A DNA stretch of 64,000 nt from Escherichia phage NHEP1. Under the pieces are notes generated by a model. That model made no database searches. It saw nothing but the letters and a program-made list of their open reading frames with translations, and was not told where the DNA came from. Positions 1,430-64,000 of this stretch are shown here, one piece after another. How positions within the stretch are numbered: the first letter of the stretch is position 1; each line of letters opens with the position of its first letter. Both the position numbers and the translations under genes were made by a program. The stretch is from sequence record PQ511146.1. One strand, 5' to 3'.

Positions 1430-4400
1430 TTAGTGACAATCACCCCAGTTACGACCGCACAAGTATTCACCTGTGATCTGGAACGGAACGCCCATCATTT
1501 TAGAAGCCTGCCAGAAGCAATGCACCACCATTTCGCCCACAGGGCTCCAGATAAGCTCAAGCTTTCCGTCATCATTCAAGATAGGATCGTATACCGTATT
1601 TCCATCCTTGTCAACCACTTCGTTTCCGTCCTCATCTTTGCGTGCCTTTTTGTACTTATGACCGTCGAACACATGAAGTTTAGCCTCTTGTTGGGCTTTA
1701 AATGTTTCCAGCTCTTCAATTGTGTCGAAGGTGTATACGGTTTTATACTTAGGTGTGTCAGGCACTTGAAGCTGATATTCGTCATGGTAATAGATAATAC
1801 GACGAACACCCTCATCATACCATCCACGCTTCACCATCTGGTGGTGCATGAGGATTCCGACCAAGTCGCACAACGATGCACCGCCATTTTGCTGATATGC
1901 ATTAAGCAAAGAGTGTTTAGAGCGGGTCCAAATGGCATGCCCGTCAAAAGAGTAGATAAATTTCTTACCTGTTGCTTCCCAGAATTTCTCCAGATCCTCT
2001 TTACGCCCCTTAAGGCCCGGGTTGGCATCCCAGAGAGCATCAATTACTCTCTGTCCAAGTTCTGGAGAGATATCTAGCATATCTGCAACTTTATCTTTTT
2101 GTGCCCCGTACATAACCCCATATGTGACAGGCTTACCATCGTTACGGGAAATCTCCTTGCCTGCTACAGAAGAGTAAGCTTTGGCGTTATTACAGTTACC
2201 GCACACTGCCACTTTACCATTCCTTCTCACAATGATTGCTCCAGAAGGGACGGTAACGCAATAAACCAAAGAACCGCTCACCTCGACAGACTCTTTAGAT
2301 AGTGTCAGCAACCCTGCTCTCTGTTTGCTACCAATCGTGATTCTGTGCTGTACGGAACGACCTTTTTTGTGAATCGCCACCGTATTATTCCGTAAACCAC
2401 ACTGAGTAGCCAGCGCAGACACAACCTCTACAGATTTCTTCCTGCACCCGGCCTGAGAGTAGTAGGCAACTTTTCCACCTTCGGAAGATACCCACCCGTC
2501 CCAGTTAGATAAAGAAGCTATAAACAGGTTTTTAGATTCTTTATCAAGGTCCATCAGGTTGTAGGTGAAATCCTTATTGCTGTCCAAAAACTCAAATACC
2601 CAGGACGGAACGTGGAATTGGAACCTTCTCGCCAGTAAGCCCCCTTTTGTGGTTTTCCCGCTCTGCTCTACATAACTAAGGCTTAGAGCAGAAAAAGTAT
2701 CTAAAAGCGTTGCAACTTTTCTGCCCTTCCCGACCTGAATCCTGCACACGATGCTGCCGTCCTTATTTGTATGCAAGTGCCCATCATCGTGAATAGCAAT
2801 AAGCAAATTAACCTGGGCAGGAGATAAGGTTGTATTCCCATAAAACTCTGCCGCATGGATAAACCTTCTTCCTGAATTAGACCCTTTACCTGCTTTCAGG
2901 TCTTTTGCCAAATCTTCAAACAATTTATTGCTTCTGTGATCCACGGTCAGCATCCTGTGTTGATCTGTAACCATAAAATCCACACTGCTGTTGTGGAAAT
3001 GATACATATCCCCACAATAACTACGCTTAACGTAATTTAATGGAGTAACAAGGTTCATCGACGAGGTGTTGTGATCGTACTGGAACACCTGTGTTCCCGG
3101 ATCAAGATCTTCAAACCTCACCCACCCTTTCTCCGTGAGAATTTGTGTATCTCCTGAATAACAGTGTGCATCGCCGTTACTTACAACATCATAATACAGA
3201 CCGTTGTCAAACTCAAAGGCACCCCAGGCCCCGATGAGCTGCTCTAAGTTGGACCCGTCAATACCGATCTCAAAGTATCCTGGAGGAACACCCCACAGAC
3301 TACGCATCTCTTTACCCATAACCACTTTAGGAGATGGTTTAGGCATGTTTGCACAAATACTATGTTTCTGTCTGGAAGTGTTTGTTAATCCAGAACTTTT
3401 AGCAGGAAGCTTGTGGTCAATCTTCAAACGTGGATGATTAAGAAGACCAGTATCAACCTTATCTTCCTTGATTGGATCAAGGACCGATCTGCGGTTTCGC
3501 AATGATAACCACAAAACGATATCTTTAGCCATCTCTCCGTTCAATTTTTCAAGATTCGGGCACAGGTGTCCAAACGTATCTTTCAGTTGCGGAGAAGTAA
3601 TAAGCGCTCTGGCTTTTCTACGTATCTTCCCAAACACTTCCTTTTTAATCCTTTCTGAGTTAGGGAAGCTTCGGAACTTATGCACAGTTGTCTGGAACTT
3701 GGCATCAGTTTTGTTCCAGAAGTTGATAATTAGATCACAATACTCTGACTCCAAAAGCTCGTCCATATATGCATATACTCGTGCATCAACATCTGCATCA
3801 GGTAAAGCTTTCTTCTTGCTGTCTTTAGTTACATCTTTAGTTCTCCACATTGTTGGGAGCCAACCAGCACTGATCAGGTATCGCTTGATGTCGTCCTGAT
3901 TGCTGATTTTCATAGGTATCTTGCAGTCAGGCATTCGCTTCTGCTGTAGGTCACTTATCGCCTGATCCATCAGCTCTTTAGGTAAAGGGTGTGGTGTAGA
4001 AGTTCCTTTGATATACCCCCTCAAGAAATCAGCCATCTTATCGGGGTCTTTACAGCCCATCTCTTCACACCATTTTATCCCCATCTTACTTACATCCCCT
4101 GTGGAGGTAAATGCTCGCTTAGGAGGAGCTTTGAACTCTAAAGCACTCATGTCCACAGGGTAGCCAAGCTTGTCTTTTAACCATTTCCAACCATTATTGG
4201 AGATTGTCCCATCTTGGTTAAACGGCTTTTCAGGGAACTTAGGCCGCTGAGACATTGATAACTCTTTTAAAGGAAGTTGTGGTTCAACACGATCAGCGAT
4301 CTCTTTCATCCACGCATCGCAACGGTCACGTAAAGCAATAGCCCCATCTATGTCGAAATACACCCCCTGTCGAGCCTGCAGCTCCATCAGGAAGTGCTGT

Positions 4401-42269: not shown

Positions 42270-42302
42270 GTCACTCCTCCGGTATGAAAATCTCTACAAG
42301 GT

Positions 42303-42331
42303 ATTTTACCAAATTTTGTAACAATAGTCAA
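42303..42331 (-). promoter_or_regulatory. sigma70-like promoter (TTGACT-N17-TAAAAT) upstream of Baseplate_J-like gene
   Basis: Read on minus strand right after the terminator: -35 TTGACT, 17-nt spacer, -10 TAAAAT. Confidence 0.55.
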
Positions 42332-48088: not shown

Positions 48089-48147
48089 TGTGCCTCCAGG
48101 TTAAACAATCATGATAGTTATTTTACCAGATTTTGAGTTAATACGCA

Positions 48148-52041: not shown

Positions 52042-54639
52042 TTAAAGGTACAATCCACGGTATTGAGCATAAAGTCCCAGACCGCGAAGGATTTCGCCAG
52101 AGTGATAGCCTACCGGATCAGAAACTGCCCAGCAGCCGTTTAAAACATTATCCCCGTTAATGAAGTGGTGCTTTTGCAGTAACTTCATACAGGCTTCTAC
52201 AACAATATCTATTTGAGGTATTGTCTCTGAATACCCGCAAAGACCTAGCCAGCAGCAACCTGCAAGCCATTCACCTACCACCCACATCCTGTCTCCTCTG
52301 TCCTGATAAGAGTATCCTCCAGAGGTGTTAAAGTCTGTAGGTAGATTTCCTGAATGAGATGACTGGAATCTGTTGAGGAACCATGCCCATTTCTGGCAGA
52401 ACAGGAACAGTCTTTCATCAACAGGTTCTTTATGTTTCTTGAGCTCATATATTGTGCGGCACGCAGCAACAAAAGATCTTGACTGGAGCTTAGAGTTATC
52501 TACCATCTCCCACCAACCAGTCAACCCTTCATTACCTCTTTGCCATACATAACGTGAGGCAACTGGACCCTCTGTCTTAAATGTATTATTATACCAGACT
52601 TGAGAGTCGTACAGAAAGCCTATTGTATTTGACAATCTATGGCGATCTATGTTTTCTGCACCCATGCAGTAGACTGCTGGGTATTGCATGCCAGGGTAGG
52701 GCCAATTTGGCTTTTCCTCTAAGAGATAGTTTTCCTTATCTATCACCTTCCCAGCAGGGAACACACCAGGAGTGTGTCTGTATGCTCCTTGCTTGTAGTT
52801 TCTGACATAGCAATCACCAACCTTGGCGGTTGATTCTGTCTTGCTTGCCATCCATACACTAAACCAGATCAGATAAGCATCCCTATCTGCAACATAAAAT
52901 TGCGGCAGCGTGTTGACGCAATACAGATCGAACAAGCCATTGCCTATCTGCCTGTCGCTCAGACTGAAATCTACAGAGGTAATTCCTTTAGGGTTAGCAA
53001 AGAAAGGTTTAATCTCATCTTCTGTGTGATGAGGTTGTGTTGGGTCTAGTTTAAAATCGCCCAGGGTAAGAGTTTCTGTTATCCATTGCCCGTTAGTAGC
53101 ATATAGATCAGCATACCATAACCAACGGTCTTTGTCAAGAAATTTGACCCTTACCATCTCATCATCTGACCGATAAGTCACTGAGTTTAAAGAAATCTCT
53201 CTTCCAAAATTGAAAGTTACCTTGCCTCTTACTATGTTGCAACGGGTGAAGTTGTCAGAGTGGTTGTAAATGTCGGTATCATACTGCATACTGACACTCG
53301 CGCCACCGCTTACGGTAATGTTTTCCTCTTTTGGCAAGAGATACGGGTTACCGTCTTTACCAACCACCTCCACGAAATCGGTGACCTTGGCAACTGTCTC
53401 TGTTACCTCTGACCCTCCAAAAGGGACCCCTATCCTATACTGTTTTTTGTTATTGTTGCCATCATTAAGGATGAAATGTGGCTGAAACAGAACCCCTTCT
53501 CCTCCGAAATTCATAACAATTTCAGCATCTCTGCCTATTTTGTATGTAATCCCTTTTTGGATTATTTCGCAAGGCTGGCGTGCGTTCATTCTAAAATTGA
53601 TATATCCGTCACTATCCCTACTCATGACAGGTACTGTTCCTGCAACTAGACAGGTGCCATCTGTGAACGGAGCCTTAATCAACGTGGTCTTTCTAAACAG
53701 TTTGTCGTAGGCATTTATATCACTGAAATTAAGCAGCTTGTTGTAAGATTGCTTAAACGCTGTGTAATACTTTTCCTCACCTGTCAAGGTATAGAGTTGA
53801 TAACAAGCGTCACACCACATTTCTTCCCCGTCCAACTCTGGGGCTTGATTGTCTGCAACCACGTTTATAGGATTTACAATTACAGGGGATCCAGCAGGTA
53901 TCACCGATCCACCCTGCTCTTGTGGCAATCTCACACAGTAGGTTACCTTGTGGCTGCCTGTAACACCCTTATCCTGCAGTTGGATTGTGCCGAACTCTGC
54001 AGACGTATGACCACTATCGGCTATGCTACCATTGGCCCAATAGCGGTTACCATCCCATGCTATATACCACTCAACCCACCAACTTAATCCAGATGTTGTC
54101 CAATTTGGGTTAGCATCTGTGCCGCCGTAAACATCAGAGTCTACAGTGTTTCTTCCTAGCACACCGTTATACGCTTGGAATGCCTTGTCTAAGTATTCTC
54201 CCCATGTCGGGGATCCAGCTGGGATTTTTCCTCTACCATTGGTGAAAGACACCACTACATCTTTAAACCCACCATGTGATGGAACCCCATCTGTGGATAA
54301 CGGGTAGTGGGACAATCTTTGCATTTTACTTTCTACTGCATATACGCCCAGAAGATGACTGTTGTAGGCTTCCCAAGCCTCTTTGGCCCTATCTAGATAA
54401 AAATCGCTTTTTGATGCCCTGTATGCCTCAATGTACCCCAGAATCAACACAGCCTGAGCTTCATGCATTGCCCAATCATTATTTATCTTACTCCCTGACC
54501 AACCTGACGCTATAAGTCCATCCTGGTTTACCAGTTTGTTCTGCGTGGGGAGATTGGTAATGCCTGTGTTGTTATCGAGGCACTTCCTGTGCCCCTCAAT
54601 CATCTGAAATACGTTATCAATGTTGTGTTGAATACGCAT
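52042..54639 (-). CDS. putative tail-associated polysaccharide-degrading enzyme (alpha/alpha-toroid-like, speculative)
   Basis: 865 aa; aromatic/Trp-rich helical segments at both ends with beta-rich middle; own AGGAG SD inside the end of the upstream gene; start 1 nt after upstream stop. Confidence 0.35.
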   Translation of the reverse strand: MRIQHNIDNVFQMIEGHRKCLDNNTGITNLPTQNKLVNQDGLIASGWSGSKINNDWAMHEAQAVLILGYIEAYRASKSDFYLDRAKEAWEAYNSHLLGVYAVESKMQRLSHYPLSTDGVPSHGGFKDVVVSFTNGRGKIPAGSPTWGEYLDKAFQAYNGVLGRNTVDSDVYGGTDANPNWTTSGLSWWVEWYIAWDGNRYWANGSIADSGHTSAEFGTIQLQDKGVTGSHKVTYCVRLPQEQGGSVIPAGSPVIVNPINVVADNQAPELDGEEMWCDACYQLYTLTGEEKYYTAFKQSYNKLLNFSDINAYDKLFRKTTLIKAPFTDGTCLVAGTVPVMSRDSDGYINFRMNARQPCEIIQKGITYKIGRDAEIVMNFGGEGVLFQPHFILNDGNNNKKQYRIGVPFGGSEVTETVAKVTDFVEVVGKDGNPYLLPKEENITVSGGASVSMQYDTDIYNHSDNFTRCNIVRGKVTFNFGREISLNSVTYRSDDEMVRVKFLDKDRWLWYADLYATNGQWITETLTLGDFKLDPTQPHHTEDEIKPFFANPKGITSVDFSLSDRQIGNGLFDLYCVNTLPQFYVADRDAYLIWFSVWMASKTESTAKVGDCYVRNYKQGAYRHTPGVFPAGKVIDKENYLLEEKPNWPYPGMQYPAVYCMGAENIDRHRLSNTIGFLYDSQVWYNNTFKTEGPVASRYVWQRGNEGLTGWWEMVDNSKLQSRSFVAACRTIYELKKHKEPVDERLFLFCQKWAWFLNRFQSSHSGNLPTDFNTSGGYSYQDRGDRMWVVGEWLAGCCWLGLCGYSETIPQIDIVVEACMKLLQKHHFINGDNVLNGCWAVSDPVGYHSGEILRGLGLYAQYRGLYL

Positions 54640-54640
54640 C

Positions 54641-55309
54641 TTAGATAGCTCCTGCTATAATCAGTGCCCCGTACCAAGTTAGCCCGTTGTCGTAGGTTTC
54701 TAACTTGAAAATATCTGTTGCACCAGCTGTAAATGTTAGGATAGGATCTCTTCCGTATGCCCATTTAACATTATCAGGCCAATAGACTTTGTTACCGCCA
54801 GAGGTCTGAGTAATGCATACGGTTATAGTTCTCGCTACCCCTTCAAGACCTTCTGTCTGATTTTCAAAAGAGATTGTGGTATTTGAAGTTAGTCGAACTT
54901 TAAAAGTGTCCGCAACTTCAAGATCCATATCAAGCTGACCACCAATAGATCCGTAATCAACTATTCTGCCAGAAGAAGTTGCAGCAAGCTCCCCAAAAAC
55001 AGACCAGGCTTTTGCAGACACACCCCCAGCACCCTCTACAGTAGAGTCTGGGAGGATTATTTTAGGGTAATCCCCGTTCCACGTGTAGTATCGCTTGGTC
55101 TCTGGGTCATAAGCAAAGTCCTTCTTGCTCTTAAGATAACCGCCCTCTGTGAAATAAACTATTTTAGTAATGCTAAGATCATTGACAACATCATCAATCT
55201 TAGCCTTTCTTGTCCCGTCAGTCTGGTTGACAACCAAGAAGTCATCACTCAAGACTGTTTCTGCATCTTCAAGATCTGGGATTGGTATTGTAGGATAAGC
55301 TACAGCCAT
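54641..55309 (-). CDS. tail fibre N-terminal anchor-domain protein (adapter)
   Basis: 222 aa; DDFLVVNQTDGTRKAKIDDVV...FTEGGYLKSKKDFAY aligns with N-terminus of 48188..52006 (DDYLVVQQPDLTRRVKIGDVV...FKEGGKLNGPMDFAY). Confidence 0.55.
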   Translation of the reverse strand: MAVAYPTIPIPDLEDAETVLSDDFLVVNQTDGTRKAKIDDVVNDLSITKIVYFTEGGYLKSKKDFAYDPETKRYYTWNGDYPKIILPDSTVEGAGGVSAKAWSVFGELAATSSGRIVDYGSIGGQLDMDLEVADTFKVRLTSNTTISFENQTEGLEGVARTITVCITQTSGGNKVYWPDNVKWAYGRDPILTFTAGATDIFKLETYDNGLTWYGALIIAGAI

Positions 55310-55318
55310 GATTTCTCC

Positions 55319-56035
55319 TTAGTTAACATCAATAGCACGACCAGACTGGTTGGCAATAGCCTCATCATTAGAGGTAGCAATAACACCCGAATATTCGCGC
55401 TCATCTGGAGCAAGCGTCCAGGTATTGCGGTTAATGGTTTGTTCTGCATCAGTCATCAGCAGATCTTTATCCTGAGTCAACAGAGAACCTACAGGGATCG
55501 GGTTTTCCATCTCAGGACCAGCATACTGGTTCCACCACGTAGCATCCCCGGTTCTAGGCAACCTGAAGTTGATCAGGTAGTACAGTTTATTAGCCCACTT
55601 AATCCAACCTTCATCATCACACAGAGAGGTTGTCCCAGCATCAGGCTGTGGATAGGTAAACTGGTCAAGACCTACGAAAGCAAGTCTTACAATCTCGTTC
55701 TCTTTGGTAACAACCTCAAAGAACGCTTGGTATGTTCTCGATCTTCGATCCATGGTGGATTGGAAGTTTATGATGTTTAGTACATCCGGCTCTTGTCTTG
55801 CCACTTCCATAATCTTGTTATCAAGAACAGTCTTCATGACCTTCTTACTGAGAAAGTCCATATAAGGGAAGCCAAACAACTCGTCAAAGTACCAGCTCCC
55901 TTTCCAGGTATTAAACCTCATCCACAGGCGCTGGCGCAGACTTACCTGGTTTGAGTCTATCAACTCAAGACCTTTATCTATCGCCAAATCACCTGTCTGT
56001 GGGTCCATCAATATATCACTATAAAGCGTAGCCAT
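55319..56035 (-). CDS. baseplate wedge protein, gp25/GPW-like
   Basis: 238 aa; TWKGSWYFDELFGFPY resembles the GPW/gp25 core motif (...KGSRPFDPEFG...). Confidence 0.5.
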   Translation of the reverse strand: MATLYSDILMDPQTGDLAIDKGLELIDSNQVSLRQRLWMRFNTWKGSWYFDELFGFPYMDFLSKKVMKTVLDNKIMEVARQEPDVLNIINFQSTMDRRSRTYQAFFEVVTKENEIVRLAFVGLDQFTYPQPDAGTTSLCDDEGWIKWANKLYYLINFRLPRTGDATWWNQYAGPEMENPIPVGSLLTQDKDLLMTDAEQTINRNTWTLAPDEREYSGVIATSNDEAIANQSGRAIDVN

Positions 56036-56047
56036 GCAAGCCCTCTA

Positions 56048-56725
56048 TTAGTGCGGTCCACTTGTCTCGCCATCAGGGCAAGAGTGGGTATGACCTTTAT
56101 ATTCTGCATAGAATGAGTCCAAATCCACACCAGCAGCCGTTATAATTCTACCAGACGGGTCTACTGTTGCACCATTCATTCTAATATTCCCATCCACAGC
56201 AGCTCGTAAGTTGGCAGCTCCGTTAGTGAAAGAAAACTCCCCACTACTGTCGCACCGTAATGTCCCGCCAGGTGTTTGAAGCTCAAAATCACCAGAAGGT
56301 GTCAGCTTAAAATAAACCCTATCATTCCATAACTCCACATTATCAGGATCGATCTGCAAAGCGTTCGAGTCTGAATGAACAGAGGTTATTGCCCACCCTG
56401 GAAACAGACCGTGAGTTTGTTGATCGTCGTTATTGTTTTCATTTCTCTCTGAAAACTGCAACCCTACAACATCGCCAGCCTTAATAGGGAGTGTTAACCT
56501 TGCCTTCCCACTGTTTGCAGACATCACCTGGATCGGAACGTCATAAATAAGAGGGTATCTCTCAACATCCCCGTCATCAAACGTGGTTTCAGCTATTGGC
56601 TGTACTGCTGCGGAGGGGATACTGTAATCTACACTGACAACTCTGGCCCTGATACTGGTGTGGTAGTCCCTCATTATTTTTTCTATAAAGGATCTTACAG
56701 CAGCATCTTTCCTATTTATTGCCAT
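56048..56725 (-). CDS. baseplate central spike, gpV/gp5-like
   Basis: 225 aa; C-terminal KGHTHSCPDGETSGPH with HxH metal-binding-type apex motif; adjacent to gp25-like gene. Confidence 0.55.
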   Translation of the reverse strand: MAINRKDAAVRSFIEKIMRDYHTSIRARVVSVDYSIPSAAVQPIAETTFDDGDVERYPLIYDVPIQVMSANSGKARLTLPIKAGDVVGLQFSERNENNNDDQQTHGLFPGWAITSVHSDSNALQIDPDNVELWNDRVYFKLTPSGDFELQTPGGTLRCDSSGEFSFTNGAANLRAAVDGNIRMNGATVDPSGRIITAAGVDLDSFYAEYKGHTHSCPDGETSGPH

Positions 56726-57723
56726 TATACCTCCTCAGTTTTGTCAACAACTCCACCCACTGTTTCCCCAAGGCCAAGCTCTGTAGTGTAATCACCACCT
56801 TCTATGGTGCCCTTATGATGGACTGTGATCACCTTATAGAAGCCTGTGTATTGCCTGCTTTTAAGATAAATGGTGGACTCTGGGAGGATCGCCCCGTTAA
56901 GACATGTGGTTACAGTAAGACCAACATCCTCTCTCGGGTTTTTCTTTTTCTTACTTGTGCCACCTTTCGCAGCAGCTTTAGCTTTTCGTTTTTTAGCAGG
57001 TTCTGGGTTTTTAGGTGTGGGTGATCCGTGCATCCCAGACTCTGCACTTATTTCAAATACAGAGTCCTTGAACCTTTTTCCAACCTTGGTCCAATATAGA
57101 GCACCGTCCTGAACGCTGAATGTTGAGTTTGTCAGCCTTGCAAACCTGCGGAGGTTCTCTGCAGTGTTCCCAGAGAAAGCCATAGAGTATTGTAAAGTCT
57201 GGTTTCCAAAACCAACAACCCTACCTTTTGGCAAGTTCATATCCTTCAGCAGGTCATTAAGCACAGAGTTCAGAGGTGTGCCCTTCTGATAAGACCTTGT
57301 GCTTTGGCACTTAATGATGTTCTCAGTGCCATCCCCAAAGATGAACTTAGTTTTTCTGGTCGGACCTTCCCATCTGTCCTCAACAAACTCTACAGTTCCG
57401 GAGAATATCAACTGGTTCTCATTATCATAGCCAGCCTCAAACATAACTGCAAGAGCATCAGCTTGATGCATATCCAGATAGTTAACTGTATCGTCAGACA
57501 GGTTGTAAACTGTCACATAGCCTTTGTTTGGCTCTTTGGTATTGTCCTTTTGTATGTCAAACTCGATATTGGCAGCACCAGTGTCCGAGCTAATCTCATA
57601 AACTCCGGAATCACTCTCTCCTTTCTTTTCAACAGATTTTGGGATATTGGTTTTTGATTTACCGCCATGCTCTACAGGACGACCAAATAATAATCGCCAT
57701 GTTCTACGTCTGTACTCTGCCAT
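56725..57723 (-). CDS. tail/baseplate protein (hub-like position), hypothetical
   Basis: 332 aa; Lys-rich segment PEPAKKRKAKAAAKGGTSKKKKNPR; between tape measure and spike. Confidence 0.35.
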   Translation of the reverse strand: MAEYRRRTWRLLFGRPVEHGGKSKTNIPKSVEKKGESDSGVYEISSDTGAANIEFDIQKDNTKEPNKGYVTVYNLSDDTVNYLDMHQADALAVMFEAGYDNENQLIFSGTVEFVEDRWEGPTRKTKFIFGDGTENIIKCQSTRSYQKGTPLNSVLNDLLKDMNLPKGRVVGFGNQTLQYSMAFSGNTAENLRRFARLTNSTFSVQDGALYWTKVGKRFKDSVFEISAESGMHGSPTPKNPEPAKKRKAKAAAKGGTSKKKKNPREDVGLTVTTCLNGAILPESTIYLKSRQYTGFYKVITVHHKGTIEGGDYTTELGLGETVGGVVDKTEEV

Positions 57724-58103
57724 TATTCTAACCCTTGCTGTTCCTTGTAAAGATCAACTGGGGTGCCGTATACAAGCTGTAGCTCGGATCTTGCTCCAAG
57801 GTTGTATCTTCCAACCCTGCCCCAATATTGATCATCTTTAAACGACAGCGCCATCAACCTACCTTTCGGTAAATCGTCTCTGTAATGCAGTCCGTCTAAG
57901 ATATCTTGACAAGCTGTTACTTTTCTGGTTACTAAAGGGCTGTCACCTACCGGACCAAGGGATAACCACCAAGACTCATCCCTCTCATTCCATTGCATAC
58001 GCATTTCATACGTTTCATTGTCTAAAACAACACGCATGGTTTGATCGGGAAAGCCGTCAATGTCCCACACAAAGGTGATTATGCACCAATCTTTAAGCTC
58101 CAT
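57723..58103 (-). CDS. tail protein, hypothetical
   Basis: 126 aa; stop/start overlap with neighbours. Confidence 0.4.
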   Translation of the reverse strand: MELKDWCIITFVWDIDGFPDQTMRVVLDNETYEMRMQWNERDESWWLSLGPVGDSPLVTRKVTACQDILDGLHYRDDLPKGRLMALSFKDDQYWGRVGRYNLGARSELQLVYGTPVDLYKEQQGLE

Positions 58104-58114
58104 TGCACGCCCCC

Positions 58115-58999
58115 TTATTTTCCGTTAACTTTGTTGTAGTTTCCCTGCTCAGATGGGACTATGGTAGAAGGTCTTCCATATTCCTGATAATACCAATCCG
58201 CAGCAGATTGAGTAACACCGTTTTCATCCGTCCACATCATAGATTTGTATGGCTGCCACTCTTCTGCGGCATTTGTGGATGCAGTGTCTGCAAATGCCCC
58301 TGTATCCCTCTTGTTACCTACGTTACTGCCATTCTTACAGTCGTTGACAGCACCTTTTTGCTGGGTCTTGCCTACTTTCTTAGGGTTGCTGTATACAGTT
58401 GCATTAACAACCTTGTTCAAGTAGAATGTGCGGAACTCTGTAAGTTCTACATCAAACACCATCGCAGCACCTTCACCAACAGACTTGTTGGCAGAAAGGC
58501 TGGTTATGATGTAGTTCTCAAGGAGTCTTTCCTCGGTAACCAAAGAAACCAACTGGCGCTTATTAATGATCTCAGTCAAAGCCTCCAGTGCAGCGCCTGG
58601 TCGCATAGATGCTGCAGGATTTTTAGAGTCAGTGTTCCTGTCAATGTAGTTTTGCTCATAGATTATATGTGGTGATGTATTTACCCTACCAGTAAAAGAA
58701 AATACACCATCTTTAATTACAGCGTGGTCTGACAGGGTAGATTTATCTTCCACCGCAAACCCAGTTTTATCAACAGAATGTTTGAAAGAGTAGTTCTCAA
58801 CCTGATCGAAGATAATGGCAAGATCGTTAGTAAAGTTTTTACCCTTCATCTCCGTATTGCGACCACCATAGTTAAGACCGCTGACAAACATAGTGTACTT
58901 TACATCGCTTTCAGTTTGCTGCTCTGCCTTTTCAGCCTTTGGAGATTTAACCTCTTGAGGCTTGTACAGGTCTTTTTCATCAACTATATTGCTTGGCAT
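58115..58999 (-). CDS. tail protein, hypothetical (first gene after tape measure)
   Basis: Track start 59026 abuts the promoter -10; second ATG at 58999 follows GGAGAGG SD. Confidence 0.4.
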   Translation of the reverse strand: MPSNIVDEKDLYKPQEVKSPKAEKAEQQTESDVKYTMFVSGLNYGGRNTEMKGKNFTNDLAIIFDQVENYSFKHSVDKTGFAVEDKSTLSDHAVIKDGVFSFTGRVNTSPHIIYEQNYIDRNTDSKNPAASMRPGAALEALTEIINKRQLVSLVTEERLLENYIITSLSANKSVGEGAAMVFDVELTEFRTFYLNKVVNATVYSNPKKVGKTQQKGAVNDCKNGSNVGNKRDTGAFADTASTNAAEEWQPYKSMMWTDENGVTQSAADWYYQEYGRPSTIVPSEQGNYNKVNGK

Positions 59000-59032
59000 A
59001 ACCTCTCCAGGACACTCCGATACCATCTAGAT

Positions 59033-59061
59033 ATTGTATCATAAAATAGCCGTTTTTACAA
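59033..59061 (-). promoter_or_regulatory. sigma70-like promoter (TTGTAA-N17-TACAAT)
   Basis: Read on minus strand after terminator 59065-59092: -35 TTGTAA, 17-nt spacer, -10 TACAAT. Confidence 0.45.
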
Positions 59062-59064
59062 CAC

Positions 59065-59092
59065 CGATAAAATAAAGGGGGCCGGAGCCCCC
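59065..59092 (-). terminator. rho-independent terminator after tape measure gene
   Basis: Minus transcript GGGGGC-UCCG-GCCCCC followed by UUUAUUUUAU. Confidence 0.65.
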
Positions 59093-59105
59093 TATGTGCC
59101 GTTTA

Positions 59106-61442
59106 TTACCAAAGATCTGTTGACATAAAGTTAATATCTTTGTTGTTCTCCCACTCAAGTTTTGCATCAATTATTTTGTTAAACTCGCCCTCATTTATTG
59201 AAATAGTGATTTTCCCATCACTGATCTCTAAAGGCAGCATTTCCATAGTTCTTAATTGAGAAGCAAAACCAGGGCCACCTGGCAACGGAAGAGTACCGCC
59301 AGGTAAGGTGTCCAAAGGATCAACAAACCCGTTACCTCCGGATATAATATCTTTGCGAATCATATCGCTGATAGTATCCAGTTGCTGATTTCTTTCACTC
59401 AGCGGGTTGAAACGGTCATTAAATAACTCTCCGGCACTTAATATTGTGCCGATAATGCCCAGCTTGCCAAGTATGCCAACTTTACCACCAGGTGTCTTGA
59501 GGCCACCTCCACCTTTTCCTGCTGCGCCGCCACCACCAGATCCTTCTGCAGTGGCTGCACCTGCTGCTCCAGCTGCACCTCTTAGAGAACTAAGGAATTT
59601 AAAGGTTTTTACAAGCATGGATGCCATGACAAAACCTTTTGTCAGGGCGTTGACGACCAGCATGATGGCAGCAGCAAACCCTGCCCATTTAGCATAGCTA
59701 AAGGTGTCATGAAGCTCTTCAGAATATTCCTTCGTCTTAGCTGTTATGAATCCCCATTTAATCCCCCATTCAAGGAAAAACATGCGGATCTTGACTATAG
59801 TGTTGTTCAGTTCACCAACTACCCAGTTAAGACCTCTCACAAACCCGCTAACAAAATCACCAGAGGCATCCCACACAAATTGCAAAGTCTCACCAGTGCG
59901 GATCAGTGTATAATAGAACTCTGTTAGTTCGTCAGCCCAACGGGTGAACAGTTTCTGACGGGACAGTTCGATGAAGGTTTTCAGTCTGTTTTCTGCCAGC
60001 ACGTTAGACTTCTGCATTCTCTCATAACCAGCTGCAGATGCCTCGTTCATGTACTTAGCCACATACTTCATGATCTTGGCTGTTTTAACCTCACCTTTCT
60101 TCATCATGTCCATGAACTGATCCATGGAGAGTTCAGAAAGACCAAAAGCCTCTTTGGTGGCCTTGATGAAAGGTTCATATGCCCCAGGTAACGCTTCAGC
60201 AAGTTGTTGCTTAAGTTCTTCGGACATTACCTGTCCTTTACCAAGCATTTGCTGGATTGCCATAATACCGCGCTGGTATTTTACCTCATCCGCACCATAA
60301 GCAGCAGCATACTGTGAGTATGCAGAGAATAGCTCATGGACCTCTTGGTTCGTCATCTGATTTTTGGCGTTCACCGCCATCTGAGAATAACCCTGAAGAC
60401 CAGATTTGAGATCAAAACCAAGACGCATGGCCTCTTGCTGGACAAACGCAACTTCACTGTTGGCTTTGTTTGGATCTCCAGTAACAGCAGTAAGAGCAGC
60501 ACTTGCCCCCTCCATCATGTGACCGGATCTGTTCACCGCAGCAAATCCAGAAAAAGCTGTATACGCAGCTGTTGCATTAATAACAGATCTACGTAAGTCT
60601 CTCAGGGCATCGCCTAGTGTAAGCGTTTGGCTGGTGGCGCTTTTAAACCCAGACTGCAGAGCTGACAGGTGGGCGTTAAAGGTTGACTTTTTCATCTCTC
60701 CGCGAGCAAACCTGGACTCTAACTCAGAGTATCCTGGCAAGCTTCCACGGAATCCGGCTCCATACTTGGCAGAAAGTCTTATCGCAGAGTTGTATAGGTG
60801 GGTTCTCCTTGCCTCACGATCCGACATAAGCCTATTATCCATACCAGCTTTACTGTCCCTTCTTAGCTGCCTATGGTAACGGTTCATAGCCGCTGTCTGA
60901 GCTTTCACAAGATTAGGGTCGGAAGCCACACCACCCATGTTAGGGTTACCGGGGATATATTTGAAAGATTTGGCATTAGCCAAAACTCTTGCCTTAGGTG
61001 CCTTATAACCACCGTAAGACACTGGTGCAGATTTGGCAGCCTTTTTGGCCTCTTTAGCTTGCTGCTGGTAGAACTTACGCATCCTAGCCATTTCTGGATT
61101 TTTAGCGGTAAGATTACCCACAGCTTGTTTACGTCTCGCGTTCTCCCTACGTTCTATTGCAGCCCTTACTGCAGCCTCTTTCTTGGCTTGTGTTACGCTC
61201 TCCCTGTGCAGTTTAGCATTTGCCTGAGATTGCTGTCTGGCAACCCGCTGCATTGTTTGCTGGGTTTTAACAGCCACTGCCTGCCATCTACTCATTGGGT
61301 TGGCTGAGTTAAAATCCTCGCCCAGTTTCCTGAACTCCCTCCCAATACTGCGAATTTTCTCTACAGCTTTTTTGTAGGAGGAGTTCTCTATCTCAAAGCC
61401 AATCTTGTTGACTGTTGTGGCAACTATTTTGTTTGTAGCCAT
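59106..61442 (-). CDS. tail tape measure protein
   Basis: 778 aa; helix-rich, Ala/Gln/Lys-rich, Gly-rich segment (GAAGAAGAATAEGSGGGGAAGKGGGG) with hydrophobic stretches; directly downstream of G/GT chaperone pair. Confidence 0.8.
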   Translation of the reverse strand: MATNKIVATTVNKIGFEIENSSYKKAVEKIRSIGREFRKLGEDFNSANPMSRWQAVAVKTQQTMQRVARQQSQANAKLHRESVTQAKKEAAVRAAIERRENARRKQAVGNLTAKNPEMARMRKFYQQQAKEAKKAAKSAPVSYGGYKAPKARVLANAKSFKYIPGNPNMGGVASDPNLVKAQTAAMNRYHRQLRRDSKAGMDNRLMSDREARRTHLYNSAIRLSAKYGAGFRGSLPGYSELESRFARGEMKKSTFNAHLSALQSGFKSATSQTLTLGDALRDLRRSVINATAAYTAFSGFAAVNRSGHMMEGASAALTAVTGDPNKANSEVAFVQQEAMRLGFDLKSGLQGYSQMAVNAKNQMTNQEVHELFSAYSQYAAAYGADEVKYQRGIMAIQQMLGKGQVMSEELKQQLAEALPGAYEPFIKATKEAFGLSELSMDQFMDMMKKGEVKTAKIMKYVAKYMNEASAAGYERMQKSNVLAENRLKTFIELSRQKLFTRWADELTEFYYTLIRTGETLQFVWDASGDFVSGFVRGLNWVVGELNNTIVKIRMFFLEWGIKWGFITAKTKEYSEELHDTFSYAKWAGFAAAIMLVVNALTKGFVMASMLVKTFKFLSSLRGAAGAAGAATAEGSGGGGAAGKGGGGLKTPGGKVGILGKLGIIGTILSAGELFNDRFNPLSERNQQLDTISDMIRKDIISGGNGFVDPLDTLPGGTLPLPGGPGFASQLRTMEMLPLEISDGKITISINEGEFNKIIDAKLEWENNKDINFMSTDLW

Positions 61443-61454
61443 GCTTTCCTCATA

Positions 61455-61491
61455 ATAAAAAGGGCCAGATCCCAGAAAAGGAATCCGGCCC
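61455..61491 (-). terminator. stem-loop with U-tract between chaperone genes and tape measure gene (attenuator-like)
   Basis: Minus transcript GGGCCGGAUUCC-(loop)-GGGAUCUGGCCC followed by UUUUU, then GAGGAAA SD of tape measure. Confidence 0.45.
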
Positions 61492-61496
61492 TTAGA

Positions 61497-61745
61497 TTAT
61501 CCTCTCCTGCGTTTAGCTTTCGCAGCAGCTGCGGCAGCCCTCTGCTCCCGCTCCATTTCCCTATTTTGGACGGTATCTAGGAATTCTTCGATATCAAGAT
61601 ACTCACAGAGTTTCAGGAAATACGCCATATCTGCAAGATTTAGCGATTCAAAATTTTCCCCTTTGAAATTCTTGAGCACCCTGCACCAAAGAAAGTCGAA
61701 CCAGTTAAGTGAACTGTTCTTGGCTGCCCACTCACTGGCCCTCAC
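61497..61745 (-). CDS. tail assembly chaperone T segment (expressed as G-T fusion by -1 frameshift)
   Basis: 82 aa with GTG start; its frame is open about 38 codons upstream, overlapping the end of 61757..62230 in the -1 frame. Confidence 0.55.
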   Translation of the reverse strand: MRASEWAAKNSSLNWFDFLWCRVLKNFKGENFESLNLADMAYFLKLCEYLDIEEFLDTVQNREMEREQRAAAAAAKAKRRRG

Positions 61746-61756
61746 AACAACCTTGC

Positions 61757-62230
61757 TTATTCCTGCTCTTCCGGAGCCTGATCCAGATTGTTCACCTGCT
61801 GGATCATACCCATCTGCTGTAACATCTCCAGAAGGCTTCCTAAACCGTCTTGTGTGAAAAAACAGCCGTAGTTAACCTCCAGAACCTTACCTGCCAGCTT
61901 AATCATCTCCAGCAGATGCCCTGCAAACACAACATCAGGGTTAAGCTTATCCACACCATCCACGGTAATATCTTCGAACAAGATTTTAAATAACTCTTCA
62001 ATAGAGTTATCATCAAGTTCTTGAAACAGGTAAGCCAGGGCTGTAGGAAGGACCTCTGCCATATTCTGACCACCTGAGAGAATAGATCCGCCGACAGCTC
62101 CTAGCGGGACAGCTACAATCTTACCGATTTTAGGCATGTTTTTCATTGCTTTCATCGGTCCCCAGTGGGTGATCACAAAGTTGTGCCCTGCTAAATCAAT
62201 CTCTGTTGTAGGTCTAAAGTTTATAGCCAT
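61757..62230 (-). CDS. tail assembly chaperone (gpG-like)
   Basis: 157 aa acidic protein immediately upstream of tape measure; contains slippery heptamer. Confidence 0.65.
   Translation of the reverse strand: MAINFRPTTEIDLAGHNFVITHWGPMKAMKNMPKIGKIVAVPLGAVGGSILSGGQNMAEVLPTALAYLFQELDDNSIEELFKILFEDITVDGVDKLNPDVVFAGHLLEMIKLAGKVLEVNYGCFFTQDGLGSLLEMLQQMGMIQQVNNLDQAPEEQE
61856..61862 (-). other. programmed -1 ribosomal frameshift site (slippery heptamer U UUU UUC)
   Basis: In-frame T_TTT_TTC at codons Cys123-Phe124-Phe125 of chaperone gene; -1 frame open from here into 61497..61745. Confidence 0.55.
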
Positions 62231-62273
62231 TTTATAGCATCCTTATTAGTCATGTTGTGCACCATATTTGTGT

Positions 62274-62302
62274 ATTTTACCATGATTATGGTGCATTGTC
62301 AA
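62274..62302 (-). promoter_or_regulatory. sigma70-like promoter (TTGACA-N17-TAAAAT) upstream of chaperone/tape-measure genes
   Basis: Read on minus strand: consensus -35 TTGACA, 17-nt spacer, -10 TAAAAT. Confidence 0.6.
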
Positions 62303-62341
62303 TTTAACCTTTCAAGCAATCCAAAAGAGTTTGTCAAAACC

Positions 62342-62374
62342 ATAAAAGCAAAAAGCCCCACCCGAAGGTGAGGC
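62342..62374 (-). terminator. rho-independent terminator (UUCG tetraloop) after tube gene
   Basis: Minus transcript GCCUCACC-UUCG-GGUGGGGC followed by UUUUUGCUUUU. Confidence 0.65.
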
Positions 62375-62392
62375 TTATACTAAAGTGTGCCC

Positions 62393-62866
62393 TTAGATAA
62401 TACCTGCAAGACCTGCGAGGCCAGTGAGAGCACCAGTGATGTTGTCACGGTTGAGCCATGCATCCAGAATACCGATATCCCAGTCCAGCTGACCTACTTC
62501 GGTTCCGTAAGTGAGGTCAGGCTGTTTTTGGATCCAACCGATTGTGGCAATACCAGGACCCTGGCTACCTTCCAGTAGAACCGGGAAGAATACCAGACCA
62601 GTAATAGATGCCTGTTTCTGCCAGTCAGAAAGGTAAGCGTTCCATACAGAAGTGTTCTGCAAAGACACAGTCATAACACCAGATTGGTTACGAGACAGGG
62701 CTGCAGACATTTCGCCATCCACACCAACATGAGGGTAGATGTTGTCTTCGTTTCTTGAAACAACAATCTTGGTGTCAGCAGCGAAGCCAGTGACACGCTG
62801 CTGCATCAGATACAGTTTGACCTTTTTAGGGTCATAAGCATAAGGAGTTAAAATTTGAGTTTCCAT
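62393..62866 (-). CDS. tail tube protein (putative)
   Basis: 157 aa; positioned between putative sheath and chaperones. Confidence 0.45.
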   Translation of the reverse strand: METQILTPYAYDPKKVKLYLMQQRVTGFAADTKIVVSRNEDNIYPHVGVDGEMSAALSRNQSGVMTVSLQNTSVWNAYLSDWQKQASITGLVFFPVLLEGSQGPGIATIGWIQKQPDLTYGTEVGQLDWDIGILDAWLNRDNITGALTGLAGLAGII

Positions 62867-62876
62867 CTAGTCTTCC

Positions 62877-64000
62877 TTATTCAGTCATTGCAACAGCATT
62901 GGTGGATTTAGAACCAACCTTGTCCAGAAGGACGTTGATCCGGATACGAACGAAGTGCAGGGCGTTGTTATACACCAGTTCTACTTTCACACCTTCCAGA
63001 ACACGAGCAGCCAACTGATTGGTTGGGATCTCTGCACGTTTAGGAACTGTGATGATCGGGTCGTAGAACACATTGTTGTCTTCGTCAAAACCTGTCAGGA
63101 TCGCGCCATTCTTAATGCCGGTATTGATCGGGTTGTTCATCAGAACAGACTTGATAACCGGAAGATCATCATCAGACATCTTCATGCTTAAACCCATATT
63201 GGAGCGACGATGCATGTACCCAAACATGGATTCTTCAGATCTGAACTTGATCCAGTGTGCAAAACGAATAGCGTCTGCATACTGACCTGAAGCACACTTA
63301 CCTTCCCAGAAAGCGCCAACACCGTTAATCATTCTGTAGAAGTTAACGTGGTTTTCCCAAATCGCCATACGTTGAGTTAAAGTCAGAGATGGTGCAATCA
63401 CACCTGGCATCTGTTTTAAGTGCAAGCTGTCACCGTAGGACGGATCGTTGGATGCCATAGCACCTATGATACCACCCTCCGGGAAGTCCTTATCTGCACG
63501 AGGATCGTACATGCCAACACTGTCATATTGTGCAGCTTTCAGTTTGGTAGCGATGTTGCTATCTTTGCCAGTCACATCTTCTGCAGTAGAGTAGACGTGC
63601 AGCTTGTAGTTGGCCTGAGCCCACTTAGCACATGCTTCAATGTCGGTGTGGTCTTCATGGCACAGGAAGTACCAATTGTCCCGCTCAGCATTGATCTTAT
63701 CAACTACTGTAGAAGGTTTTTCAGAATTGGCGATATTCTTGATTGTATAGTTACCAGTATGATAACCAACAGTGCAGTCACCAGTGATGGTGATAACACC
63801 TTCAGAAGCCTCTACAGTGATATCGTTCAAGTTATCATCTGCTTCGATTTTAGTCTTCATTGATTCTGCAATCTGAGTTGCAGCTGTCCCACCAGAGATA
63901 GGAACTATCAAAGAGGTATTGTAGCCACCTTTTGCAATGGTCATTACGACATCGGTATCAGCTGCGGCAGCAATACCTTTAAAATCTACAGTGGTTTTTT
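62877..64000 (-). CDS. tail sheath protein (putative), N-terminus beyond window edge
   Basis: Frame stays open upstream of track ATG (63944) to window end; position before a 157-aa tube-like protein; C-terminal region loosely sheath-like. Confidence 0.45.
   Translation of the reverse strand, partial: KTTVDFKGIAAAADTDVVMTIAKGGYNTSLIVPISGGTAATQIAESMKTKIEADDNLNDITVEASEGVITITGDCTVGYHTGNYTIKNIANSEKPSTVVDKINAERDNWYFLCHEDHTDIEACAKWAQANYKLHVYSTAEDVTGKDSNIATKLKAAQYDSVGMYDPRADKDFPEGGIIGAMASNDPSYGDSLHLKQMPGVIAPSLTLTQRMAIWENHVNFYRMINGVGAFWEGKCASGQYADAIRFAHWIKFRSEESMFGYMHRRSNMGLSMKMSDDDLPVIKSVLMNNPINTGIKNGAILTGFDEDNNVFYDPIITVPKRAEIPTNQLAARVLEGVKVELVYNNALHFVRIRINVLLDKVGSKSTNAVAMTE

What the first reader, a model, noticed from the sequence alone, without database searches (positions are those of the whole stretch)
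61455..62230. G/GT frameshift chaperone pair followed by an attenuator-like terminator before the tape measure
A U_UUU_UUC slippery heptamer (61856..61862) with an open -1 frame into the next ORF supports G/GT-type frameshifting. Unusually, a 12-bp stem with U-tract (61455..61491) lies between the chaperone and tape-measure genes, which may tune their expression ratio.
Basis: seen in the sequence. Interest (0 to 1): 0.45.

Follow-up and report, generated by a model that had tools for sequence, protein, structure and literature searches.

The report
Phage tail-chaperone frameshift plus leaky terminator
This is the standard tail-assembly chaperone gene pair of an rV5-like E. coli phage, in which a few ribosomes slip back one base to make a longer second protein, followed by a transcription-terminator hairpin already published for phage rV5, so it is real and well conserved but ordinary.

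Summary
Both parts of the observation are in the sequence at the stated coordinates, on the minus strand. The window is a Vequintavirus, 99.4% identical to Escherichia phage ECP32.

**Frameshift**
- The gene order is sheath, tube, chaperone G (Pfam Phage_TAC_15), a −1-frame ORF, then the tape measure gene.
- T_TTT_TTC (61862..61856) is in the X_XXY_YYZ phase. It is the only in-phase TTTTTTC in about 17,600 codons of the window.
- It sits 3 codons after the −1 frame opens. That frame then runs 124 codons.
- The same in-phase T_TTT_TTY is kept in 69 of 69 metagenomic relatives (19 clusters). It is also kept in 10 of 12 annotated relatives down to 28% protein identity, although the preceding residue changes (Cys, Ser, Pro).
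- This is a lambda G/GT-type −1 programmed frameshift, predicted to give G (157 aa) and GT (244 aa).
- None of the 15 GenBank records I inspected annotates it. The same motif was described in 2025 for sister clades.

**Terminator**
- The hairpin (61493..61460, 14 bp, U-tract) is conserved in position, with different stem sequences, across Vequintavirinae.
- It is terminator t050 of the 2013 rV5 paper.
- The tape measure gene has no room for its own promoter, so it must be transcribed by read-through. This supports an attenuating role but does not prove it.

Interest is low.

The parts
61757..62230 (-). Gene G: tail assembly chaperone, 157 aa, the zero-frame product (rV5 gp051 homologue).
   Evidence: ORF. 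It matches Pfam PF21822 Phage_TAC_15 (E = 1.2e-23) and phrog_3840 tail assembly chaperone (E = 1.7e-68). It lies between the tube gene and the tape measure gene.
61856..61862 (-). Slippery heptamer T_TTT_TTC in X_XXY_YYZ phase (codons TGT TTT TTC = Cys-Phe-Phe 123-125).
   Evidence: Phase was checked. It is the only in-phase TTTTTTC in 17,630 codons of the window. It is conserved in 10 of 12 annotated relatives and 69 of 69 IMG/VR loci.
61497..61856 (-). The −1 frame segment of GT: 119 codons plus stop, re-reading C 61856. It holds a conserved RFR motif, a Gly/Ser-rich linker and a conserved C-terminal T domain. GenBank annotates only 61497..61745 as a separate 82-aa hypothetical protein (rV5 gp050).
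   Evidence: Frame analysis is. The segment matches phrog_10409 (E = 2.9e-51, function unknown).
61876..61880 (-). Shine-Dalgarno-like GGAGG, 13 nt 5' of the heptamer. It is a possible but unproven frameshift stimulator.
   Evidence: Read from the sequence. GGAGG, GGAG or GAGG is present at this position in 7 of 11 lineages, so it is not universally conserved.
61460..61493 (-). Terminator hairpin (rV5 t050): 14-bp stem, 6-nt loop.
   Evidence: −26.1 kcal/mol, z = −3.2. Hairpins at the same position with different stem sequences occur in relatives. It was published as t050.
61452..61461 (-). U-tract of the terminator (UUUUUAUUAU). Its first two U pair with the AA at the stem base.
   Evidence: Read from the sequence and reported by the scan.
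61448..61451 (-). GAGG ribosome-binding site of the tape measure gene, 5 nt before the ATG at 61442.
   Evidence: Read from the sequence. It is annotated as an RBS at the equivalent position in the Murica record.
59106..61442 (-). Tape measure protein gene, 778 aa.
   Evidence: Matches Pfam PF20155 TMP_3 (E = 3.4e-18) and phrog_5255.
62274..62302 (-). Promoter-like site upstream of G (rV5 P051): TTGACA, 17 nt, TAAAAT with an extended −10. It overlaps the putative late motif TGGTAAAATA.
   Evidence: (11 of 12 matches), and rV5 Table S4.
62353..62376 (-). Terminator-like hairpin after the tail tube gene (rV5 t052).
59076..59093 (-). Terminator-like hairpin after the tape measure gene (rV5 t049).

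Best explanation
The window carries the tail module of an rV5-like myovirus (genus Vequintavirus).

**Frameshift.**
- Gene G encodes a tail assembly chaperone.
- At T_TTT_TTC, a small fraction of ribosomes slip back one nucleotide. The two tRNA-Phe re-pair from UUU-UUC to UUU-UUU.
- Those ribosomes continue in the −1 frame and make GT (244 aa). GT is residues 1-125 of G, then a short conserved RFR motif, a Gly/Ser-rich linker and a roughly 70-aa T domain.
- By analogy with lambda G/GT and P2 E/E+E', G and GT coat the tape measure protein. The T domain recruits the tail tube protein. Neither protein ends up in the virion.

**Terminator.**
- Three nucleotides after the GT stop lies an intrinsic terminator (rV5 t050).
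- The tape measure gene begins 17 nt after the stem and has no room for its own promoter. It can therefore be transcribed only by RNA polymerases that read through the hairpin.
- The terminator thus sets tape measure mRNA, for a protein needed in only a few copies per tail, well below chaperone mRNA.

**Shown versus inferred.** Shown here are the sequence anatomy, family membership, conservation of the heptamer, frame and hairpin, and the absence of promoter space. Inferred are that slippage occurs and at what rate, that the hairpin terminates and how leakily, and the protein functions.
For: **Identity**
- The region is 99.4% identical to Escherichia phage vB_EcoM-ECP32, and 115 phage records cover at least 80% of it.

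**Family and position**
- G matches PF21822 and phrog_3840.
- Its neighbours are sheath (phrog_205), tube (PF11681, phrog_280) and tape measure (PF20155, phrog_5255).

**Frameshift site**
- The heptamer is in phase and the −1 frame is open for 124 codons.
- It is unique among 17,630 codons of the window.

**Conservation**
- In-phase TTTTTTC occurs at the homologous FF site in PVP-SE1, FENT2, CR3, W70, phAPEC8, VivaForever, two Aeromonas phages, a Felix O1-like phage and an Erwinia phage, at 28-55% G identity.
- The −1 frame is open 75-99 codons past the G stop in every one of the 12 relatives, including the two that lack TTTTTTC.
- All 69 IMG/VR loci, in 19 clusters at 70% identity, have wobble T plus TTT plus TTY. 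The preceding codon varies among TGT, TCT, AGT and CCT, so the nucleotide is conserved rather than the amino acid.
- Rheinheimera phage Barba8S carries the lambda heptamer G_GGA_AAG in the same overlap, near the homologous site. This favours ribosomal slippage.
- Post-shift peptides align from the first residues, well upstream of the various annotated starts of the downstream ORF.

**Published support**
- U_UU.U_UU.C is among the efficient E. coli −1 motifs (PMC4066793).
- The G/GT mechanism and its 30:1 ratio are described in PMC5009743.
- A conserved −1 frameshift with a GTTTTT motif is reported in sister clades (PMC12846349).

**Terminator**
- A hairpin plus U-tract sits at the same junction with different stem sequences in PVP-SE1-, CR3-, W70-, L019- and Aeromonas-type lineages, with 4-6 pair types at each stem level.
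- It was predicted as t050 (ΔG −24.2), flanked by P051, t049 and P048, in rV5 Table S4.
Against: **No experimental data.**
- The rV5 virion mass-spectrometry supplement contains no G or T peptides. That is expected for chaperones but uninformative.
- I found no transcriptome for this phage group.

**Frameshift**
- There is no convincing stimulatory RNA structure downstream of the heptamer (z = −1.6; no shared fold across relatives). The upstream GGAGG is present in only some lineages. The slippage rate could therefore be very low.
- Conservation of the FF dipeptide accounts for part of the T-run.
- The IMG/VR sample was retrieved with a peptide pattern that included FF, so only the synonymous choices in it are informative.

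**Terminator**
- The hairpin is absent in phAPEC8-type and Felix O1-type relatives, which have the same frameshift. It is therefore not an obligatory partner of G/GT.
- Late-infection RNA polymerase might ignore it.
Confidence: 0.78

Rival explanations
1. GT is made by transcriptional slippage rather than ribosomal slippage. RNA polymerase adds one extra U in the U6 run, giving mRNAs that encode exactly the same GT protein.
For: - The site is a homopolymeric T6 run (T7 in some relatives).
- A one-base insertion yields the same CFF-HTRR junction as a −1 ribosomal shift (inference from the sequence).
- A non-frameshift mechanism has been proposed for the T4-like chaperone genes (Vladimirov et al. 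2022, cited in PMC12846349).
Against: - From general knowledge of the recoding literature, six-base runs are shorter than the 8-9 or more base runs that give appreciable slippage by bacterial RNA polymerase.
- Every relative that has the run has it in the exact X_XXY_YYZ phase.
- One lineage uses the non-homopolymeric G_GGA_AAG instead.
- U_UU.U_UU.C is a proven ribosomal −1 motif in E. coli.
Confidence: 0.07
2. There is no recoding. The downstream ORF (61497..61745, GTG start) is translated independently as an 82-aa protein, as most GenBank records annotate it.
For: - It is annotated as a separate hypothetical protein in Murica, EdH4, PVP-SE1 and others.
- It has its own PHROG family (phrog_10409).
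- A weak AAGG lies upstream of the GTG (read from the sequence).
Against: - Annotated starts differ widely between relatives, from 38 to 88 aa, so there is no conserved start codon.
- The −1 frame is stop-free for about 40 codons upstream of the GTG, back to just before the heptamer, in every lineage.
- The peptide encoded upstream of the annotated starts is conserved.
- The closest record, ECP32, does not call the ORF at all.
Confidence: 0.08
3. The hairpin does not act mainly as a terminator. It might be a 3' stabiliser or processing site for the G/GT mRNA. Alternatively it might be a fully efficient terminator, with the tape measure gene expressed by some other route.
For: - Stable 3' hairpins commonly protect mRNA (general knowledge).
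- An Aeromonas-type relative has a consensus promoter (TTGACT, 17 nt, TATAAT) after its hairpin. There the hairpin acts as an insulator and the tape measure gene has its own promoter.
Against: - In this window only 17 nt separate the stem from the tape measure ATG, so no promoter fits.
- The tape measure protein is essential, so read-through must occur.
- The U-tract directly after a GC-rich stem base is the intrinsic-terminator signature.
- A stabilising role and a leaky-terminator role are not mutually exclusive.
Confidence: 0.12

Closest known systems
Phage lambda G/GT tail assembly chaperones (−1 frameshift at G_GGA_AAG; Levin et al. 1993, Xu et al. 2004, 2013, 2014; summarised in PMC5009743)
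   Same: - Position between the major tail/tube gene and the tape measure gene.
- Two overlapping ORFs related by a −1 shift.
- A slippery heptamer in the overlap.
- A short abundant product and a rare long product.
- Both products expected to be absent from virions.
   Different: - The heptamer is T_TTT_TTC rather than G_GGA_AAG.
- There is no detectable sequence similarity to lambda G. The family here is Pfam Phage_TAC_15.
- The shift site lies about 35 codons before the G stop. G therefore has a 32-residue C-terminal tail that GT lacks.
- This is a myovirus tail.
- An intrinsic terminator follows the pair.
Tail assembly chaperone locus of Vandenendeviridae (Pakpunavirus, phage Adele) and Andersonviridae (Felix O1- and Moogle-like phages), with a conserved GTTTTT motif (PMC12846349)
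   Same: - The phage lineages are evolutionarily related and share the sheath, tube, chaperone, tape measure synteny.
- The downstream ORF is routinely mis-annotated as a hypothetical protein.
- The −1 frame is uninterrupted.
- The slippery motif is a T-run. I found in-phase TTTTTTC in the Felix O1-like phage Alf5.
   Different: - As far as the passages I read go, that paper analysed Vandenendeviridae and Andersonviridae, not Vequintavirinae.
- The Felix O1-type locus has no hairpin. There the T stop overlaps the tape measure start.
Phage P2 E / E+E' (myovirus tail chaperones made by a −1 frameshift)
   Same: - A contractile-tail phage.
- The frameshift pair sits between tube and tape measure.
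- From my own recollection, P2 also uses a T-rich heptamer.
- The review cited says frameshift efficiency in P2 and related phages is 2- to 3-fold higher than in lambda.
   Different: The protein family is different. I did not test P2 sequences here.
Predicted rho-independent terminator t050 of phage rV5 (Kropinski et al. 2013, PMC3606486, Table S4)
   Same: The sequence GGGCCGGATTCCTTTTCTGGGATCTGGCCC-TTTTTATTAT is identical, and so is the position between genes 50 and 49.
   Different: None. It is the same element in a sister phage. That paper predicted it only and did not discuss it in relation to the chaperone-to-tape-measure ratio.

Membership tests
G/GT-type tail assembly chaperone pair with programmed −1 frameshift | Located between the major tail/tube gene and the tape measure gene, on the same strand. 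| tested here: met
   The order on the minus strand is sheath, tube, G, −1 ORF, tape measure.
G/GT-type tail assembly chaperone pair with programmed −1 frameshift | The second ORF is in the −1 frame relative to the first and overlaps its 3' end, with no stop between the shift site and the downstream ORF. | tested here: met
   The −1 frame is open from 3 codons before the heptamer to TAA 61499..61497, which is 124 codons.
G/GT-type tail assembly chaperone pair with programmed −1 frameshift | A slippery X_XXY_YYZ heptamer in the correct phase within the overlap. | tested here: met
   T_TTT_TTC at 61862..61856 is in phase. The motif is efficient in E. coli (PMC4066793).
G/GT-type tail assembly chaperone pair with programmed −1 frameshift | The shift site and frame relation are conserved in divergent relatives. 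| tested here: met
   10 of 12 annotated relatives have TTTTTTC, plus one with G_GGA_AAG. All 69 IMG/VR loci, in 19 clusters, have the motif.
G/GT-type tail assembly chaperone pair with programmed −1 frameshift | Sequence membership of a recognised chaperone family. | tested here: met
   PF21822 Phage_TAC_15 scores 84.4 bits against a cut-off of 22. phrog_3840 gives E = 1.7e-68. There is no NCBIfam or PDB relative.
G/GT-type tail assembly chaperone pair with programmed −1 frameshift | The fusion protein is actually produced at a low fixed ratio and is required for tail assembly. | not testable with these tools
   This needs a reporter assay, mass spectrometry of infected cells and a slip-dead mutant.
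Intrinsic (rho-independent) terminator | A GC-rich stem-loop immediately followed by a U-tract on the transcribed strand, located after a stop codon. | tested here: met
   14-bp stem with 8 G-C pairs, 6-nt loop, tail UUUUUAUUAU, 3 nt after the TAA.
Intrinsic (rho-independent) terminator | The structure is conserved while the sequence changes. | tested here: met
   Hairpins lie at the same junction with different stems in at least 6 lineages, with 4-6 pair types per stem level. RNAalifold on a MAFFT alignment was uninformative because indels misaligned the arms. The covariation evidence is therefore a register-from-base tabulation, not a formal test.
Intrinsic (rho-independent) terminator | RNA 3' ends form there, and the termination efficiency has been measured. 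| not testable with these tools
   No transcriptome or Term-seq study for this phage group was found.
Classical transcription attenuator (alternative terminator/antiterminator structures controlled by a leader peptide, protein or ligand) | A competing antiterminator structure or a sensing element. | tested here: not met
   The fold of 61435..61510 shows a single dominant hairpin. Rfam finds no known element. 'Attenuator-like' applies only in the loose sense of a leaky terminator inside an operon.

The most novel reading that the evidence does not exclude
Read-through of the terminator may be mechanically coupled to the frameshift.

- Only ribosomes that have shifted into the −1 frame travel the 260 nt between the G stop and the hairpin.
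- They stop at a TAA just 3 nt before the stem. The gap is −2 to +5 nt in 13 of the 18 lineages tabulated, against 12-17 nt for the two neighbouring terminators.
- A shifted ribosome trailing RNA polymerase would cover the 5' arm of the stem and suppress termination.
- Tape measure mRNA would then be made roughly in proportion to GT synthesis. That would be a frameshift-gated transcription attenuator fixing the GT to tape measure stoichiometry.

Nothing here excludes this. The only support is the spacing, and short stop-to-terminator distances are common anyway.
Probability: 0.06. Interest if true: 0.7.

Novelty: new member of a known kind. Interest (0 to 1): 0.2.

Why it matters
**Practical value.**
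- Vequintavirus and related genomes include many phage-therapy and O157 biocontrol candidates. In every record I inspected the chaperone pair is annotated as two unrelated hypothetical proteins, and in one record the second ORF is missing.
- They should be annotated as G and a joined GT product. The invariant T_TTT_TTY at the FF site gives a simple rule for doing so across Vequintavirinae, Stephanstirmvirinae, Plateaulakevirus and Felix O1-like phages.

**Biological point.** The layout is promoter, G/GT, terminator, tape measure, terminator, promoter. It is a tidy example of setting the level of a low-copy tail protein at the transcription level. It adds no new principle.

Tried and rejected
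- **RNAalifold on a MAFFT alignment of the T-to-tape-measure junctions.** Indels misaligned the stem arms and only 4 trivial pairs were returned. I replaced it with per-sequence folding and a tabulation counted from the stem base.
- **Stimulatory structure 3' of the heptamer.** The 116-nt fold is not better than shuffles (z = −1.6), and no common hairpin appears at 5-9 nt spacing across relatives. I rejected this as evidence.
- **Upstream GGAGG.** It is present in only 7 of 11 lineages, so I kept it as a possibility only.
- **Rfam scan of 61300..62450.** It returned only two sub-threshold chance hits.
- **PDB sequence search and NCBIfam with the 244-aa GT.** Nothing was found.
- **rV5 virion mass-spectrometry supplement, searched for G, T and junction peptides.** None were present.
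- **Literature searches for a Vequintavirus transcriptome or a described chaperone-to-tape-measure terminator.** None were found.
- **Plus-strand ORFs in the region (61663..61857, 61850..61993).** I did not test these short antisense ORFs further. Both lie antisense to the conserved minus-strand chaperone genes.
- **Classical attenuator with alternative structures.** I rejected this because there is only a single dominant hairpin.

Full report
**What the window is.** The 5-kb stretch around the finding is 99.4% identical to Escherichia phage vB_EcoM-ECP32. It is 95-99% identical to more than a hundred rV5-like phages of the genus Vequintavirus. All relevant genes are on the minus strand:
- tail sheath, 62877 to beyond 63944 (phrog_205, DUF3383)
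- tail tube, 62393..62866 (PF11681, phrog_280)
- a 157-aa ORF, 61757..62230
- an 82-aa ORF, 61497..61745, in another frame
- tape measure protein, 59106..61442 (PF20155, phrog_5255)
- baseplate genes further on

**Checking the frameshift observation.**
- The plus-strand bases 61856..61862 are GAAAAAA, so the mRNA reads UUUUUUC.
- The heptamer begins at the third base of codon 123 of the 157-aa ORF, giving TG[T TTT TTC], the phase required for tandem tRNA slippage.
- The −1 frame has a stop 3 codons upstream of the heptamer. It is then open for 37 codons overlapping G and 87 more, ending at TAA 61499..61497.
- A −1 shift gives a 244-aa product: G residues 1-125 followed by HTRRFRKPSG..., a Gly/Ser-rich stretch and the whole downstream ORF.
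- Across 17,630 codons of likely genes in the window there is exactly one in-phase TTTTTTC, which is this one. The expectation for a T6N heptamer in the 37-codon overlap is 0.006.

**What the first ORF is.** It is a member of Pfam Phage_TAC_15 (E = 1.2e-23) and of phrog_3840 'tail assembly chaperone' (E = 1.7e-68). The downstream ORF belongs to phrog_10409, of unknown function. No NCBIfam model or solved structure matches the fusion.

**Comparative evidence from annotated relatives.** tblastn with G finds 577 phage records. I fetched twelve relatives spanning 28-55% identity. They are Seunavirus PVP-SE1 and FENT2, Henunavirus pEp_SNUABM_01, Certrevirus CR3, W70, phAPEC8, VivaForever, two Aeromonas Plateaulakevirus phages, Rheinheimera phage Barba8S, Pseudomonas phage KoPa-4 and the Felix O1-like phage Alf5.
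- In all twelve the −1 frame is open for 75-99 codons beyond the G stop.
- Ten have TTTTTTC in phase at the homologous ...NYGxFF site.
- Barba8S has the lambda heptamer G_GGA_AAG in the same overlap, a few codons downstream of that site.
- Only KoPa-4 has no canonical heptamer.

**Comparative evidence from metagenomes.** A scan of IMG/VR returned 69 loci in 19 clusters at 70% identity.
- All 69 have T at the wobble position of the preceding codon, then TTT, then TTY.
- The preceding codon itself varies among TGT (Cys), TCT and AGT (Ser) and CCT (Pro), so the nucleotide is held rather than the residue.
- Caveat: that scan used a peptide pattern ending in FF, so only the synonymous choices are informative. 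The tblastn-derived set is free of this bias.

**Other points on the frameshift.**
- The peptides encoded just after the shift align across lineages (an RFR motif, with F nearly invariant). This is well upstream of the inconsistent start codons that annotators chose for the downstream ORF.
- U_UU.U_UU.C is among the efficient −1 motifs measured in E. coli (PMC4066793).
- I found no convincing downstream stimulatory structure.
- A GGAGG lies 13 nt upstream in this phage but in only about two thirds of lineages. A low, lambda-like efficiency is the reasonable expectation.

**Rivals to ribosomal frameshifting.**
- Independent initiation of the downstream ORF is what most GenBank records imply. 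It does not explain the stop-free, conserved −1 sequence upstream of it, nor the lack of a conserved start.
- Transcriptional slippage in the U6 run would give the same protein. However, the run is short, the phase is fixed in every relative that has the run, and one lineage uses a non-homopolymeric classical heptamer.

**Checking the hairpin.**
- On the mRNA strand, AAGGGCCGGAUUCC-UUUUCU-GGGAUCUGGCCCUU (61493..61460) is followed by UUUAUUAU.
- The centroid structure is this single 14-bp hairpin (−26.1 kcal/mol, z = −3.2). It is the strongest terminator-like hit in 54000..64000.
- It starts 3 nt after the GT stop and ends 17 nt before the tape measure ATG. Those 17 nt hold the GAGG ribosome-binding site.

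**Conservation of the hairpin.**
- It is conserved in position and shape but not in sequence. Present-day stems include AGCCGGGUUCC/GGGAGCCUGGCU (PVP-SE1 type), GGGCUGGAGUC/GACUCUGGCC (CR3 and W70 type), AAAGGGCUGG..CCAGCCCUUU (L019, 70% G identity) and GGCUGCC.C/G.GGCGGCC (Aeromonas type). Each is followed by a T-rich tract.
- It is absent where the T stop abuts or overlaps the tape measure start. This is the case in phAPEC8 and VivaForever, Felix O1-like Alf5, KoPa-4 and the GC-rich metagenomic lineages.
- It is therefore a lineage feature of Vequintavirinae and neighbours, not a universal companion of the frameshift.

**How it most likely works.** The rV5 genome paper predicted, at the homologous places, the following elements (PMC3606486 Table S4):
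- a promoter upstream of gene 51 (P051: TTGACA, 17 nt, TAAAAT, also matching their putative late motif TggTAaAAtA)
- terminator t052 after the tube gene
- t050, which is this hairpin with identical sequence
- t049 after the tape measure gene
- a putative late promoter P048 after that

All of these are present in the window. The tape measure gene is thus bracketed by two terminators and has no space for its own promoter. Because the protein is essential, t050 must be leaky. The amount of tape measure mRNA is set by read-through from the G/GT transcript. This fits the stoichiometry known from lambda, where many G molecules serve each tape measure molecule and the tape measure is present in a few copies per tail (PMC5009743). 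That is an inference from layout. No 3'-end mapping exists for this phage group as far as I could find.

**Comparison with what is known.**
- The frameshift is a textbook G/GT arrangement (Xu et al. 2004, cited).
- In 2025 the same T-run motif and the same mis-annotation were described for the sister clades Vandenendeviridae and Andersonviridae (PMC12846349).
- I found no paper or GenBank record that annotates it for Vequintavirinae. All 15 records inspected show two separate CDSs or only one.
- The terminator is already published and is annotated in the Murica and EdH4 records.
- The finding is therefore a correct reading of a known kind of system in a group where the recoding has not been written into the annotation.

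**Most novel reading not excluded.** Only shifted ribosomes translate up to the TAA that sits 3 nt from the stem, so they could occlude the hairpin and couple tape measure transcription to GT synthesis. The spacing is short (−2 to +5 nt) in 13 of the 18 lineages tabulated. It is 12-29 nt in several others, and short spacing is common for terminators generally. I rate this at about 6%.

**Verdict.**
- The element is a new member of a known kind.
- Interest is low (0.2).

Noticed in passing
window 62258-62295 (minus-strand promoter region upstream of G): A perfect 9-bp inverted repeat, TGCACCATA / TATGGTGCA, with 20 nt between the arms, brackets the −10 element of the promoter-like site P051. 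It could be an operator for a regulator of the chaperone transcript. Its two arms are the only exact copies of the 9-mer outside one unrelated match at 34414 in the window.
   Followed up: partly
window 59076-59093, 61460-61493 and 62353-62376: Three terminator-like hairpins follow the tape measure, G/GT and tube genes respectively. The tail genes are thus cut into single-gene or two-gene transcription segments, and the tape measure gene is the only one with no promoter-like site of its own.
   Followed up: partly
window 42302-42311, 48119-48128 and 62273-62282 (minus strand): There are three exact copies of TGGTAAAATA, the putative rV5 late-promoter motif. Each lies just upstream of a minus-strand gene start. 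With one mismatch allowed there are 17 matches against 5.7 expected.
   Followed up: partly
window 61876-61880: A Shine-Dalgarno-like GGAGG lies 13 nt 5' of the slippery heptamer. From memory, this is within the spacing reported to stimulate −1 shifting in dnaX. It is conserved in only about two thirds of lineages.
   Followed up: partly
GenBank MG065662, MG065672, MG065674, MG065677 and others: Eighteen records labelled 'Campylobacter phage' with host Campylobacter jejuni are about 96% identical to this E. coli rV5-like tail region. The host assignment looks doubtful.
   Followed up: no
L011 (Rheinheimera phage Barba8S), 1830-1836 and 2132-2770: This relative uses the lambda heptamer G_GGA_AAG instead of T_TTT_TTC. 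It also has an HNH endonuclease gene inserted on the opposite strand between the T ORF and the tape measure gene.
   Followed up: no
L036 (IMG/VR Aeromonas-type locus), within about 100 nt after the T stop: Here the hairpin after the T ORF is followed by a consensus promoter (TTGACT, 17 nt, TATAAT) before the tape measure gene. In this lineage the tape measure gene appears to have its own promoter.
   Followed up: no
L009 (VivaForever) 2220-2370 and L010 (Aeromonas 4L372D) 2205-2524: The annotated tape measure starts look too far downstream. The supposed intergenic DNA encodes the conserved N-terminus (...KI.N.VTF.VDK...) from a TTG or GTG start.
   Followed up: partly
L003 (ECP32, the closest record), 2944-3257: The closest GenBank relative does not annotate the −1 ORF at all. 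This leaves a 314-bp gap between the chaperone and tape measure genes.
   Followed up: no
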